This document shows, piece after piece, positions 56,646 to 58,652 of a stretch of 64,000 nucleotides of DNA (position 1 is the stretch's first letter; each line of letters starts with the position of its first letter). This DNA is from Blastocatellia bacterium (GTDB lineage: Bacteria > Acidobacteriota > Blastocatellia > RBC074), in assembly GCA_043736395.1 (NCBI GenBank), contig JAYTCQ010000354.1, positions 3,723 through 67,722 of the forward strand, in the 5' to 3' direction. Position numbers and translations under genes: made by a program. The notes beneath the pieces are model-generated. The model did not search any database and was not told the DNA's origin. It worked only from the letters and a program-made list of their open reading frames with translations.

Positions 56646-56651
56646 TACATT

Positions 56652-57098
56652 TCAGATATTTTTCTGTCTTGGATCGTCTTCAGGTGGATGCCTGTTGACT
56701 GCCACATCAGCTTCTCGAATTAACAATACACGTTCTCGATTAAACTCAAATAAGTCAGATGTTGCCCTCCCGATGTTGGTCAATGGAAAGATTCTGAGTC
56801 CATCAGCCGACCAGATAAAATGATCTGCCCAGTTATTATTACGAGGATTAAAAATAAAAACTTCATCGCCACTTTCGGCGTCCATGGCTTTTTGTTTTCC
56901 AGATTTACGACGATTACAAAAGAAACAGGCTAAGGCAAGATTATCTAAAGATTCTGAACCGCTTTCTGTGACAGGAATTACATGATCAATAGTAAACCGC
57001 ACGTATTGCCAACGTTCATTGGTGTGACAATACTCACATAAACGATTAGCACGCTGACGAACTTGTGTTTGAAGAAGAGTAGAAAATTTACGAGGCAC
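56652..57098 (-). CDS. HNH endonuclease (cassette copy B).
   Basis: 'CEYCHTNE...IDHVIPVTESGSESLDNLALACFFCNRRK' plus downstream 'FNPRNNNWADHFIWS' matching copy A 'FNPNLKNWTEHFGWD'. Confidence 0.7.
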   Translation of the reverse strand: MPRKFSTLLQTQVRQRANRLCEYCHTNERWQYVRFTIDHVIPVTESGSESLDNLALACFFCNRRKSGKQKAMDAESGDEVFIFNPRNNNWADHFIWSADGLRIFPLTNIGRATSDLFEFNRERVLLIREADVAVNRHPPEDDPRQKNI

Positions 57099-57384
57099 GA
57101 GGAAGTTCCTGCAATTGAGTCTGCGTCAAATTACGGGTGAGGCGATTCAGAAAACTAAGATAATCATCAATACTTTCATACTCATCTAATTCTGTTTCTT
57201 CCGATGCAGATAATTTCGTCATCTTTTGCTTCTCAAGCAATTCTTCAATTCGTTCTTGTGTGATTTGGGAAACCCGCAAGACCACTGCGCCTTCAACTAC
57301 TTCAAGATTGACTGCGCCTTCGCGGGGCAAAGTGTTTGGCAGTTTGCCAATTTGCGGGACAGGCTGAACTAAGGTTAATGTCAT
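57088..57384 (-). CDS. Small hypothetical protein, upstream partner of HNH copy B.
   Basis: 98 aa; overlaps the HNH start by 11 nt; acidic helical C-terminal half as in the copy-A partner. Confidence 0.4.
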   Translation of the reverse strand: MTLTLVQPVPQIGKLPNTLPREGAVNLEVVEGAVVLRVSQITQERIEELLEKQKMTKLSASEETELDEYESIDDYLSFLNRLTRNLTQTQLQELPRAS

Positions 57385-57442
57385 AATTCCTCCAACGAAC
57401 TTTTACATATCATACTATAGCTACCAAGGATAAAAAATAAGA

Positions 57443-57892
57443 ATGCAAGCCATCATCTTCATTGGCATCCAAGCCTCCGGCAAGTCCACATTTTTTCAGC
57501 AACAATTTTTTCATACGCACCTTCGCCTCAATCTTGATATGCTCAATACGCGGCATCGAGAAGAGATTCTGCTTCGTGCTTGTCTGGAAGCAAAACAGCC
57601 TTTCGTGATTGACAATACCAACGTGACGCGTGAAGACCGCGCCAAATATATCAATGCCGCTAAAGACGTGGGCTTCAATGTGGTTGGCTATTATTTTCAA
57701 TCAAAATTGCAAGAGTCTATTGACCGCAACAGCAAGCGTTCAGGCAAGGCGTTGATTCCAGTAAAAGGAATTCTGGCGACACATCGAAAGTTGAAATTAC
57801 CGAATTACGATGAAGGATTCGATCAGCTATTTTACGTTTCGATCAATGATGTGGGAGAATTTATTGTAACGGAGTGGCGTAATGAAATTTGA
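57443..57892 (+). CDS. P-loop NTPase of polynucleotide-kinase/AAA_33 type.
   Basis: N-terminal Walker A 'GIQASGKST' six residues from the start, as in Pnk/Clp1-like kinases; 149 aa; overlaps the Thg1-like gene start. Confidence 0.55.
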   Translation: MQAIIFIGIQASGKSTFFQQQFFHTHLRLNLDMLNTRHREEILLRACLEAKQPFVIDNTNVTREDRAKYINAAKDVGFNVVGYYFQSKLQESIDRNSKRSGKALIPVKGILATHRKLKLPNYDEGFDQLFYVSINDVGEFIVTEWRNEI

Positions 57893-58652
57893 TGAATTAG
57901 ATGAAAAGATGCGTGCCTACGAAACGGCGTTTGATTTATGTGCTGTGCCAGGAATGTTTCTCGTAGCACGAATTGACGGGCGCAGCTTTACTCGCCTGAC
58001 GAAAGAAGTTCATAAGTTTGAGACTCCTTTTGATGTGCGAGTTCAGGATATGATGGTAGCGACGACGGAGCACCTGATGAATTGCGGGTTTCGATGTGTT
58101 TATGGATACACGCAGTCAGATGAAATTTCACTTTTATTTCATCCTGAAATTGATACGTTTGATCGTAAGCTCCGAAAATATGATTCGATTCTCGCAGGTG
58201 AAGCGAGTGCAAAATTTTCTTTATTGCTTGGTTCACACGCTGCTTTCGATTGCCGCATTTCGCAACTGCCAAATGAAAATTTAGTTCGTGATTATTTCCG
58301 TTGGCGCAATGAAGACGCGCATCGCAACGCACTCAACGGCTATTGTTATTGGCAACTCCGAAAGGACGGCGCAAGCGCAACGCAAGCAACCAAGCAGCTT
58401 AATAAAATGTCAGTTGCCGATAAAAACGAGTTGCTTTTTCAGTACGGCATTAATTTCAATGATGTTCCAAACTGGCAAAAGCGTGGAACCGGATTGTACT
58501 GGGAATCTTTCAGCAAAGCGGGGTTCAATCCCAAGACTGGTCAAGCCGTAATCGCAGAAAGGCGACGTATTAAAATTGATTATGAATTGCCGATGAAAGA
58601 TTCATACGGAGAATTTATTTTGCACTTGTTGTCTCAAACTTCTGAAGAATAA
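57882..58652 (+). CDS. tRNA(His) guanylyltransferase Thg1-like protein (TLP; 3'-5' nucleotidyltransferase).
   Basis: 'VARIDGRSFTRLTK ... PFD ... YTQSDEIS' matches the Thg1 family catalytic core (two-metal carboxylates in 'RIDGR' and 'SDE'). Confidence 0.75.
   Translation: MKFDELDEKMRAYETAFDLCAVPGMFLVARIDGRSFTRLTKEVHKFETPFDVRVQDMMVATTEHLMNCGFRCVYGYTQSDEISLLFHPEIDTFDRKLRKYDSILAGEASAKFSLLLGSHAAFDCRISQLPNENLVRDYFRWRNEDAHRNALNGYCYWQLRKDGASATQATKQLNKMSVADKNELLFQYGINFNDVPNWQKRGTGLYWESFSKAGFNPKTGQAVIAERRRIKIDYELPMKDSYGEFILHLLSQTSEE

What the first reader, a model, noticed from the sequence alone, without database searches (positions are those of the whole stretch)
57443..58652. P-loop polynucleotide-kinase-like gene overlapping a Thg1-like 3'-5' polymerase gene: candidate RNA 5'-end repair pair
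Bacterial Thg1-like proteins repair 5'-truncated tRNAs by templated 3'-5' addition, which requires a 5'-activated end. An overlapping AAA_33/Pnk-type kinase (Walker A at residues 10-17) could supply the 5'-phosphorylation. The pair sits next to an HNH nuclease cassette.
Basis: partly seen in the sequence, partly recalled or inferred. Interest (0 to 1): 0.55.

Follow-up and report, generated by a model that had tools for sequence, protein, structure and literature searches.

The report
Polynucleotide kinase plus reverse polymerase operon
Two overlapping genes encode a small polynucleotide 5'-kinase and a Thg1-like 3'-5' RNA polymerase, a widely conserved bacterial gene pair already predicted in 2010 to repair damaged RNA 5' ends, so this locus is a real but ordinary new example.

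Summary
Window 57443..57892 (+) encodes a 149-aa P-loop kinase and 57882..58652 (+) a 256-aa Thg1-like protein (TLP), overlapping by 11 nt. The Walker A motif is at residues 8-15, not 10-17. Profile, sequence and fold searches place the kinase in the polynucleotide 5'-kinase family, not with gluconate or shikimate kinases. The TLP keeps the three catalytic carboxylates.

The pairing is not chance. In 80 TLP loci from species of about ten phyla, 65 have this kinase directly upstream, 52 with the same 11-nt overlap. In the reverse direction, 58 of 78 kinase loci have a TLP downstream. Kinase-TLP fusion proteins exist. Fifteen of the 80 loci place the TLP gene, usually with the kinase, next to Hen1, Pnkp, RNA ligase or RlaP genes.

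The interpretation (kinase makes the 5'-phosphate that the TLP extends) is well supported by context. It matches the prediction of Anantharaman, Iyer and Aravind (Biol Direct 2010), and I found no experimental test of it.

The neighbouring HNH cassette is a separate two-gene module in a variable slot and is not linked to the pair.

Novelty is low and interest modest.

The parts
57443..57892 (+). Stand-alone polynucleotide 5'-kinase-family P-loop kinase, 149 aa
   Evidence: ORF. Pfam AAA_33 E 1.4e-14. NCBIfam PNK-3'Pase, Pnkp and PSTK. PDB mPNKP kinase domain E 1e-8. AF2 model pLDDT 86.8. Foldseek top 16 hits are all polynucleotide kinases, TMq up to 0.80. More than 4400 homologues, mostly 149 aa.
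57464..57490 (+). Walker A / P-loop codons, residues 8-16 (GIQASGKST)
   Evidence: Read from the translation. G8, G13, K14 and S15 are invariant in 31 homologues.
57536..57538 (+). Codon of Asp32, the predicted general base of the kinase
   Evidence: Aligns with the Asp of the NRD motif of mouse PNKP. Invariant in the family. The equivalent Asp38 of CthPnk and Asp35 of T4 Pnk is the general base (PMC3902929).
57871..57874 (+). GGAG Shine-Dalgarno-like tetramer inside the kinase's last codons, starting 11 nt (ending 8 nt) upstream of the TLP ATG
   Evidence: The junction motif AGGAGTGG-N4-ATGAARTTTGA recurs in most of the 62 overlapping junctions.
57882..57892 (+). 11-nt overlap of the kinase stop (TGA 57890..57892) with TLP codons 1-4
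   Evidence: The same 11-nt overlap occurs in 52 of 65 kinase-TLP loci from other phyla. This implies translational coupling (inference).
57882..58652 (+). [quoted passage not shown]
   Evidence: Pfam Thg1 2.2e-30 and Thg1C 1.5e-18. PDB M. acetivorans TLP 5axk 3.9e-30 and B. thuringiensis TLP 4kgk 4.8e-19. PHROG tRNA-His guanylyltransferase 2.3e-42. Catalytic D32, D80 and E81 are present.
56652..57384 (-). Neighbouring two-gene cassette that is not part of the system: 98-aa ORF (57088..57384) plus 148-aa HNH nuclease (56652..57098)
   Evidence: Pfam HNH 2.9e-13. GC 40% against 47% for the window; absent from all other loci fetched up to that call. The small gene with an HNH partner recurs in unrelated genomic contexts. 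The slot holds other cargo in relatives.

Best explanation
This is a translationally coupled two-gene operon from a Blastocatellia (Acidobacteriota) genome. The first product is a minimal polynucleotide 5'-OH kinase. The second is a Thg1-like 3'-5' polymerase. The most likely pathway has four steps. (1) An RNA, most plausibly a tRNA whose 5' acceptor-stem strand has been cut or trimmed, is left with a 5'-OH (inferred). (2) The kinase transfers the gamma-phosphate of an NTP to that 5'-OH; this is inferred from homology, with K14/S15 in the P-loop, D32 as general base, R39 and T59 as acceptor contacts and R95/R99 as lid arginines. (3) The TLP activates the new 5'-monophosphate with GTP or ATP. 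(4) The TLP adds the missing nucleotides in the 3'-5' direction, templated by the 3' strand; steps 3 and 4 have been shown in vitro for other bacterial TLPs but not for this protein. The conserved 11-nt overlap with an internal GGAG, together with natural kinase-TLP fusions, suggests the two proteins are made together and act together. The pair is a member of the kinase-Thg1 gene neighbourhood described by Anantharaman, Iyer and Aravind in 2010.
For: Identity of the parts. Catalytic residues: with roles taken from PMC3902929 and PMC3701042. Linkage: 65 of 80 TLP loci from species of about ten phyla have the kinase directly upstream on the same strand, and 62 of these overlap (52 by 11 nt, 4 by 14 nt, 6 by 4 nt). 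In the reverse direction, 58 of 78 assessable kinase loci have a TLP directly downstream. Fusion proteins with AAA_33 + Thg1 + Thg1C are P0128 and P0226. Kinase and TLP pairwise distances correlate, r = 0.67, with 0 of 2000 Mantel permutations reaching that value. RNA-repair context: 15 of 80 loci have Hen1, Pnkp, RNA ligase with an HD-kinase, or RlaP next to the TLP gene, with the kinase present in all but L023, for example Hen1-kinase-TLP-Pnkp. Bacterial TLPs repair 5'-truncated, 5'-monophosphorylated tRNAs in vitro (PMC3061083). The 2010 prediction is quoted.
Against: There is no biochemical or genetic evidence for this kinase family or for its coupling to a TLP. [quoted passage not shown] The natural substrate and the source of 5'-OH damage are unknown. 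About a quarter of kinase loci lack an adjacent TLP, including sbcD-kinase-sbcC arrangements, and 15 of 80 TLP loci lack an intact kinase; each enzyme can therefore work, or at least persist, alone. Loci that also contain Pnkp already have a 5'-kinase domain, so the extra kinase may do something more specific. The 80 genome loci are the 80 closest relatives of the query TLP, not a random sample of all TLPs. Only 6 of 80 TLP loci on viral contigs have the kinase.
Confidence: 0.65

Rival explanations
1. The pair maintains tRNA-His identity by restoring G-1 opposite C73, rather than carrying out general 5'-end repair.
For: Bacterial and archaeal TLPs can add a templated G-1 to tRNA-His lacking it in vitro (PMC6471195; PMC3061083).
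Against: G-1 is genome-encoded and retained by RNase P in most bacteria. RNase P leaves a 5'-phosphate, so a dedicated 5'-OH kinase would be unnecessary. All bacterial TLPs tested prefer 5'-truncated tRNAs and are not tRNA-His specific. The associations with Hen1, Pnkp, RNA ligase and RlaP point to damage repair. The window has no tRNA gene with which to test this.
Confidence: 0.12
2. The kinase is a general DNA/RNA end-healing enzyme that works independently of the TLP. The adjacency would then reflect co-transfer of a compact operon, not a shared pathway.
For: 20 of 78 kinase loci lack a TLP, and some place the kinase between sbcD and sbcC, which are DNA-end-processing genes. The closest solved relatives (mammalian PNKP, CthPnk, Mucorales KIN) phosphorylate DNA as well as RNA.
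Against: The identical 11-nt overlap is maintained at about 46% mean kinase sequence divergence across about ten phyla. Kinase-TLP fusions exist in two representatives. Divergence of the two proteins is correlated. Persistence of this kind is the usual signature of a functional partnership.
Confidence: 0.15
3. The kinase, the TLP and the adjacent HNH cassette form one defence or toxin-antidote system.
For: They are adjacent in the window. The HNH protein gives weak PADLOC hits to PtuB-type HNH effectors. The slot upstream of the kinase holds an EcoRV restriction-modification pair in a relative.
Against: The HNH gene and its 98-aa partner occur next to the pair only in contigs identical to the window (L001-L004) and in none of the 247 other loci fetched up to that call. 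The small gene with an HNH partner recurs between unrelated housekeeping genes elsewhere. The kinase and TLP have no PADLOC hit. HNH nucleases are known to leave 5'-phosphate ends, which need no kinase (established knowledge).
Confidence: 0.03
4. The kinase is a small-molecule kinase (gluconate or shikimate type) and is unrelated to nucleic acids.
For: Gluconokinases appear among the structural neighbours from rank 17 (TMq about 0.6).
Against: No Pfam or NCBIfam hit to SKI or gluconate-kinase models. The acceptor-site residues of polynucleotide kinases (Asp32, Arg39, the DNTN threonine, lid arginines) are conserved. All top sequence and fold hits are polynucleotide kinases.
Confidence: 0.02

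Closest known systems
Bacterial P-loop polynucleotide kinase + Thg1 conserved gene neighbourhood (Anantharaman, Iyer, Aravind, Biol Direct 2010;5:43)
   Same: Same two families, same order and strand, and the same proposed logic: the kinase generates the 5'-phosphate that Thg1/TLP activates and extends. The occasional association with RNA ligase genes is also reported there.
   Different: Nothing essential differs. Added here: quantification on current genomes (65/80 and 58/78); the conserved 11-nt overlap with an internal GGAG; natural kinase-TLP fusions, whereas the 2010 paper says most Thg1 proteins are stand-alone; the Hen1-kinase-TLP-Pnkp arrangement; and the absence of the ATP-positioning lysine in this TLP clade.
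Biochemically characterised bacterial TLPs (Bacillus thuringiensis BtTLP, PDB 4kgk; Myxococcus xanthus MxTLP) and Methanosarcina acetivorans TLP (PDB 5axk)
   Same: Thg1 + Thg1C architecture, the catalytic carboxylates, and TLP-type sequence in place of the eukaryotic HINNLYN motif. Corallococcus (Myxococcota) TLPs, 72-74% identical to the window protein, carry the same kinase upstream.
   Different: The window TLP has Thr48 where BtTLP has Lys43 and human THG1 has Lys44, the residue that positions the activating ATP. All 80 closest genomic relatives have Ala, Ser, Thr or Val there. No activity data exist for this protein.
Stand-alone and domain polynucleotide 5'-kinases: mammalian PNKP kinase domain, Clostridium thermocellum Pnk, T4 Pnk, Mucorales RNA 5'-OH kinases (RazKIN, LcoKIN)
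   Same: P-loop fold, general-base Asp, acceptor-binding Arg and Thr, and lid arginines. TMq 0.70-0.80 to these structures.
   Different: At 149 aa it is shorter than any of these. It has no phosphatase or ligase domain. By length, it should lack the CthPnk homodimerisation module (inference). It is encoded in an operon with a 3'-5' polymerase rather than with a ligase.
Pnkp/Hen1 bacterial RNA repair system
   Same: An RNA end-healing logic. In at least 10 of 80 related loci the kinase-TLP pair is embedded between or beside Hen1 and Pnkp genes.
   Different: The window contains no Hen1, Pnkp, RNA ligase or RlaP gene. The pair has no 2',3'-phosphatase, ligase or methyltransferase activity. It would rebuild a 5' end by polymerisation, not seal a break.

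Membership tests
Polynucleotide 5'-kinase family of P-loop kinases (T4 Pnk / CthPnk / PNKP type) | Walker A P-loop GxxxxGK[ST] with the essential Lys and Ser | tested here: met
   G8-IQAS-G13-K14-S15-T16; invariant in 31 homologues. Roles are taken from CthPnk Lys21/Ser22.
Polynucleotide 5'-kinase family of P-loop kinases (T4 Pnk / CthPnk / PNKP type) | General-base Asp after strand 2, with a nearby essential Arg that orients it and binds the acceptor | tested here: met
   D32 aligns with the Asp of the mouse PNKP 'NRD' motif, and R39 with the PNKP Arg seven residues later. D32, R37 and R39 are invariant. The spacing to the Arg differs from CthPnk and T4 (D+3), so which Arg pairs with D32 is inferred.
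Polynucleotide 5'-kinase family of P-loop kinases (T4 Pnk / CthPnk / PNKP type) | Thr of the D-x-T-N motif that anchors the first phosphodiester, and lid arginines that bind the NTP phosphates | tested here: met
   D57-N58-T59-N60 is invariant and R95/R99 are conserved. The match to T4 Pnk (query 53-116 against chain 80-142) places T59 at about Thr86 and R99 at about Arg126, assuming no gaps.
Polynucleotide 5'-kinase family of P-loop kinases (T4 Pnk / CthPnk / PNKP type) | Fold closer to polynucleotide kinases than to other P-loop kinases | tested here: met
   Foldseek against PDB: ranks 1-16 are all PNKP, Mucorales KIN or CthPnk (TMq 0.69-0.80). Gluconokinase appears at rank 17 (TMq 0.62).
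Polynucleotide 5'-kinase family of P-loop kinases (T4 Pnk / CthPnk / PNKP type) | NTP-dependent phosphorylation of 5'-OH polynucleotide ends | not testable with these tools
   Needs an enzyme assay.
Thg1-like proteins (TLP clade of the Thg1 3'-5' polymerase superfamily) | Thg1 catalytic palm domain plus the Thg1C C-terminal domain | tested here: met
   PF04446 2.2e-30 (residues 8-130) and PF14413 1.5e-18 (residues 135-215).
Thg1-like proteins (TLP clade of the Thg1 3'-5' polymerase superfamily) | Three metal-binding carboxylates (human D29, D76, E77) | tested here: met
   D32, D80 and E81 align with them. D80 and E81 are invariant and D32 near-invariant across the 160 genome and viral loci analysed.
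Thg1-like proteins (TLP clade of the Thg1 3'-5' polymerase superfamily) | TLP rather than eukaryotic Thg1: lacks the eukaryote-specific HINNLYN motif and is closest to characterised TLPs | tested here: met
   The window has HRNALNG where human THG1 has HINNLYN (alignment; the motif is described in PMC6471195). The best solved relative is M. acetivorans TLP (3.9e-30), ahead of human THG1 (4.2e-23).
Thg1-like proteins (TLP clade of the Thg1 3'-5' polymerase superfamily) | Conserved Lys that positions the activating ATP (hTHG1 K44 / BtTLP K43) | tested here: not met
   Thr48 in the window, and Ala/Ser/Thr/Val in all 80 closest genome loci. BtTLP K43A loses about 10-fold in adenylylation but keeps guanylylation. 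This is therefore a clade-specific variation, not a loss of family membership.
Thg1-like proteins (TLP clade of the Thg1 3'-5' polymerase superfamily) | [quoted passage not shown] | not testable with these tools
   Needs an enzyme assay. Shown for other bacterial TLPs.
Conserved kinase-Thg1 operon (Anantharaman et al. 2010) | PNK-family kinase and Thg1/TLP genes adjacent on the same strand, conserved across distant bacterial lineages | tested here: met
   Window genes overlap by 11 nt. 65 of 80 TLP loci and 58 of 78 kinase loci show the same arrangement. The published description is quoted.
Pnkp/Hen1 RNA repair system | Presence of Hen1 methyltransferase and trifunctional Pnkp (kinase-phosphatase-ligase) | tested here: not met
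   tblastn of Hen1, Pnkp, RNA ligase and RlaP from related loci against the whole window finds only the weak kinase-domain match to the kinase gene itself.
Known anti-phage defence systems (PADLOC models) | Kinase or TLP matches a defence-system protein model | tested here: not met
   No PADLOC hit for either protein at E <= 0.01.

The most novel reading that the evidence does not exclude
The kinase-associated TLP clade may be a self-contained, horizontally mobile 5'-end RNA rebuilding module with its own chemistry. It would be a two-protein (sometimes fused) machine in which a minimal 5'-OH kinase hands its product directly to a TLP. That TLP has lost the ATP-positioning lysine and so would activate ends with GTP. 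The module would act as an antidote to ribotoxins or nucleases that leave 5'-OH-truncated tRNAs. This would give bacterial TLPs their long-missing physiological role.
Probability: 0.25. Interest if true: 0.55.

Novelty: already known. Interest (0 to 1): 0.28.

Why it matters
Bacterial Thg1-like polymerases have had no established physiological role since their discovery. The conserved kinase partner is the strongest clue: it argues that the natural substrates carry 5'-OH ends, which are typical of metal-independent RNases and ribotoxins, rather than the 5'-phosphate ends left by RNase P. That clue has been in print since 2010, but the experimental TLP papers I read do not mention a kinase partner. 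This locus adds no new principle. The survey done here gives concrete handles for the missing experiment: a tight overlap, fusions, Hen1/Pnkp contexts, and the loss of the ATP-binding lysine.

Tried and rejected
1. Link to the HNH cassette: rejected. The cassette is absent from every other locus fetched up. Its small gene, with an HNH partner, recurs elsewhere in unrelated contexts. In relatives the slot upstream of the kinase holds an EcoRV/Dam pair, unknown ORFs or nothing.

2. Defence-system membership: no PADLOC hit for the kinase or the TLP.

3. Small-molecule kinase: not supported.

4. Phage origin: TLPs are common on viral contigs (569 hits), but only 6 of the best 80 have the kinase, three of them in the reversed order.

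5. A partner non-coding RNA or tRNA near the pair: no tRNA in the 64-kb window and no credible Rfam match in 52-62 kb.

6. Promoter and terminator scan around the pair: counts were at the level of shuffled sequence and uninformative.

7. Other RNA-repair genes in the window: none.

8. Literature on an experimental test of the kinase: none found. A look-up of Burroughs and Aravind 2016 by DOI failed because the paper is not held, so later computational treatments may exist that I could not read.

9. Does loss of the activation lysine track kinase presence? No. It is a property of the whole closest clade, including the 15 loci without an intact kinase. Some kinase-linked viral and fused TLPs keep Lys or have His there.
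Full report
OBSERVATION

ORF 57443..57892 (+) encodes 149 aa and ORF 57882..58652 (+) encodes 256 aa. They overlap by 11 nt, 57882..57892. Pfam assigns AAA_33 to the first (E 1.4e-14) and Thg1 (2.2e-30) plus Thg1C (1.5e-18) to the second.

The only correction concerns the Walker A motif. GIQASGKS(T) lies at residues 8-15(16), not 10-17. Upstream on the opposite strand are a 98-aa ORF (57088..57384) and a 148-aa HNH nuclease gene (56652..57098).

The organism is an uncultured Blastocatellia (Acidobacteriota). This follows from the source names of the closest kinase homologues and from identical metagenomic contigs.

WHAT THE KINASE IS

NCBIfam's best, sub-threshold hits are the bifunctional PNK-3'-phosphatase, bacterial Pnkp and PSTK. 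A sequence search of the PDB finds these relatives:
- the kinase domain of mammalian PNKP, E about 1e-8 over residues 3-130
- the stand-alone Mucorales RNA 5'-OH kinases, 0.002 for 9drz and 0.24 for 9d8a
- T4 Pnk, about 0.003
- C. thermocellum Pnk, about 0.1

An AlphaFold2 model built on 31 homologues is confident, with pLDDT 86.8 and pTM 0.83. Its 16 best Foldseek matches in the PDB are all polynucleotide kinases, with TMq 0.69-0.80. Gluconokinase first appears at rank 17 with TMq 0.62.

The residues that define the family mechanistically are present and invariant or nearly so among homologues:
- P-loop K14 and S15
- D32, aligned with the general-base Asp of PNKP
- R39 (and R37)
- the D57-N58-T59-N60 motif, whose Thr anchors the acceptor's first phosphodiester
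- the lid arginines R95 and R99

The roles of these residues are taken from the CthPnk and T4 Pnk structures (PMC3902929). At 149 aa this is a minimal stand-alone member of the family. The Mucorales enzymes (161-176 aa) show that proteins of this size can be bona fide RNA 5'-OH kinases (PMC11571804).

WHAT THE SECOND GENE IS

The protein is a TLP, not a eukaryotic-type Thg1. Its best solved relative is the Methanosarcina acetivorans TLP (5axk, 3.9e-30). Human THG1 scores 4.2e-23 and B. thuringiensis TLP 4.8e-19. The three metal-binding carboxylates are present as D32, D80 and E81. The eukaryote-specific HINNLYN motif is replaced by HRNALNG (the motif is described in PMC6471195).

IS THE PAIRING MEANINGFUL?

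I built a TLP alignment from 50%-identity cluster representatives. With it I fetched the 80 best TLP loci from a collection holding one genome per species. These loci come from Acidobacteriota, Myxococcota, Planctomycetota, Chloroflexota, Cyanobacteriota, Bacteroidota, Bacillota, Pseudomonadota, Verrucomicrobiota and others.

Sixty-five of the 80 have an intact homologue of the kinase on the same strand directly upstream. Sixty-two of these overlap the TLP start: 52 by exactly the same 11 nt as in the window, 4 by 14 nt and 6 by 4 nt. In two further loci the genes are split by an insertion, and in L046 the insert is a DDE transposase gene. Two of the 15 loci without an intact kinase still carry a C-terminal kinase remnant abutting the TLP start.

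The junction reads AGGAGTGG-N4-ATGAARTTTGA. The kinase's Glu-Trp codons contain a GGAG that starts 11 nt upstream of the TLP start codon. The kinase's TGA stop lies within the conserved Phe3-Asp4 codons of the TLP. I read this as conserved translational coupling, which is an inference.

In the reverse direction, 58 of 78 assessable kinase loci from metagenomes have a TLP immediately downstream. Two representatives, P0128 and P0226, are natural kinase-TLP fusions with AAA_33 + Thg1 + Thg1C. Pairwise divergences of the kinase and the TLP across 62 loci correlate, r = 0.67, and none of 2000 Mantel permutations reached that value.

In 15 of the 80 loci the TLP gene sits next to recognised RNA-repair genes, and the kinase is present in all of these but L023:
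- Hen1 and/or Pnkp, typically arranged Hen1-kinase-TLP-Pnkp
- an RNA ligase with an HD-kinase
- RlaP

The window itself has none of these genes, so it carries the minimal two-gene version.

CAVEATS ON LINKAGE

- The 80 genome loci are the closest relatives of the query TLP, not a random sample of all TLPs.
- On viral contigs TLPs are frequent, but only 6 of the best 80 have the kinase.
- A quarter of kinase loci lack a TLP. Two of them show an sbcD-kinase-sbcC arrangement that suggests DNA-end work.
- One Blastocatellia relative keeps the kinase in the same syntenic position with no TLP (L007).

THE HNH CASSETTE

It is unrelated to the pair. It occurs next to the pair only in contigs identical to the window and in none of the 247 other loci fetched up to that call. 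Its GC content is 40%, against 47% for the window. The 98-aa protein belongs to a family of about 140 hypothetical proteins. Members of that family sit immediately upstream of a 141-143-aa HNH gene, overlapping or abutting it, between unrelated housekeeping genes in other genomes. One member stands alone in an island with RES-Xre, MazEF and an integrase fragment.

In Blastocatellia relatives the slot between the NorD-like VWA gene and the kinase varies. It holds the HNH cassette in this organism, an EcoRV/Dam restriction-modification pair in L010, two unknown ORFs in L005, and nothing in L007. HNH nucleases are known to leave 5'-phosphate ends, so no mechanistic link to a 5'-kinase is expected (established knowledge).

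MECHANISM

Shown here:
- the identity of both proteins
- intact catalytic residues
- tight, conserved, probably translationally coupled operon structure
- fusions
- RNA-repair neighbourhoods

Shown elsewhere for homologues:
- Bacterial TLPs add templated nucleotides to 5'-truncated tRNAs. They need a 5'-monophosphate, which they activate with ATP or GTP, or a 5'-triphosphate (PMC3061083; PMC3701042).
- Polynucleotide kinases convert 5'-OH to 5'-phosphate.

Inferred: the kinase supplies the 5'-phosphate on 5'-OH-terminated, 5'-truncated RNA, and the TLP then rebuilds the end. The need for a kinase argues for substrates produced by metal-independent RNases or ribotoxins, not by RNase P.

COMPARISON WITH WHAT IS KNOWN

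This is the conserved neighbourhood reported by Anantharaman, Iyer and Aravind (Biol Direct 2010;5:43). [quoted passage not shown] They proposed that the kinase generates the 5'-phosphate substrate, and they noted links to RNA ligase and Macro-domain genes.

I found no experimental follow-up. The 2019 TLP review never uses the word kinase. [quoted passage not shown]

DETAILS THAT MAY BE NEW, ALL MINOR

- the quantified co-occurrence in both directions
- the conserved 11-nt overlap with an internal GGAG
- kinase-TLP fusions
- the Hen1-kinase-TLP-Pnkp order
- the missing activation lysine

On the last point: the lysine that positions the activating ATP (human K44, BtTLP K43) is Thr in the window. 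It is Ala, Ser, Thr or Val in all 80 closest genome loci, whereas 63 of 80 TLPs on viral contigs have Lys or Arg there. BtTLP K43A loses about 10-fold in adenylylation but keeps guanylylation. This clade may therefore prefer GTP for activation, which is a testable prediction, not a finding.

VERDICT

The HNH context is incidental. Novelty: already known, with this locus being one more member. Interest: 0.28.

Noticed in passing
window 56652..57384 (-); also L252 3001-3710, L254 3001-3715, L255 3001-3294: A compact two-gene cassette: a 98-aa protein with an acidic C-terminal half and no Pfam hit, followed by a 148-aa HNH nuclease, overlapping by 11 nt, at GC 40%. The small protein defines a family of about 140 hypothetical proteins. 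Members with a 141-143-aa HNH partner sit between unrelated housekeeping genes in other genomes. One member stands alone in an island with RES-Xre, MazEF and an integrase fragment. It looks like a small mobile toxin-antitoxin-like or selfish module.
   Followed up: partly
window 56646..57442; L005 3226-4970; L010 3216-4993; L007 4993-5001: The short interval between the NorD-like VWA gene and the kinase gene is a variable slot in Blastocatellia relatives. It holds the HNH cassette here, an EcoRV endonuclease plus Dam-type methyltransferase in L010, two unknown ORFs in L005, and nothing in L007. This suggests a local hotspot for selfish or defence cargo.
   Followed up: partly
window 58023..58025 (TLP residue 48); loci L012-L171: The TLP lacks the conserved lysine that positions the activating ATP (human K44, BtTLP K43). 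It is Thr here and Ala/Ser/Thr/Val in all 80 closest genome loci, but Lys or Arg in 63 of 80 TLPs on viral contigs. Published BtTLP K43A data suggest this clade would activate 5' ends with GTP rather than ATP.
   Followed up: partly
proteins P0133, P0159; P0158, P0194, P0212; P0189: Other TLP fusions among 50%-identity representatives. P0133 and P0159 carry a C-terminal circularly permuted YpsA (SLOG) domain. P0158, P0194 and P0212 share an uncharacterised C-terminal domain of about 150 aa that ends ...RHDWI in the first two and has no Pfam hit. P0189 is a TLP-DinB (Y-family polymerase) fusion, which could be a gene-calling artefact.
   Followed up: no
L196 1741-6044; L214 2-4275: Close homologues of the kinase (58% and 57% identity to the window protein) sit, without a TLP, between a Metallophos (SbcD-like) gene and an SMC/Rad50-like (SbcC-like) gene. 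This suggests the same kinase family is also recruited to DNA-end processing.
   Followed up: no
L012 3904-4008; L048 2062-2148; L038 3552-4008; L046 2813-3799: Signs of decay of the pair in some genomes. L012 and L048 keep only a C-terminal kinase remnant abutting an intact TLP gene. L038 has a frameshifted kinase. In L046 a DDE transposase gene is inserted between the kinase and the TLP.
   Followed up: partly
window 37748..44636 (-): A 1178-aa ORF (41100..44636) rich in Gln, Glu, Ala and Leu, predicted coiled-coil, with no Pfam hit. It accounts for the strong AT skew (-0.29) at 42-44 kb. It lies in an apparent operon with a 209-aa unknown protein, an HSP20-like protein (39899..40453) and a CDC48-like double-AAA ATPase (37748..39895).
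   Followed up: partly
window 57443..58652 versus flanks: The kinase (43.1% GC) and the TLP (42.7%) are lower in GC than the flanking VWA (51.0%) and beta-lactamase/NamZ (48.1%) genes. The closest TLP relatives come from many phyla. Both points are consistent with horizontal spread of the two-gene module.
   Followed up: no
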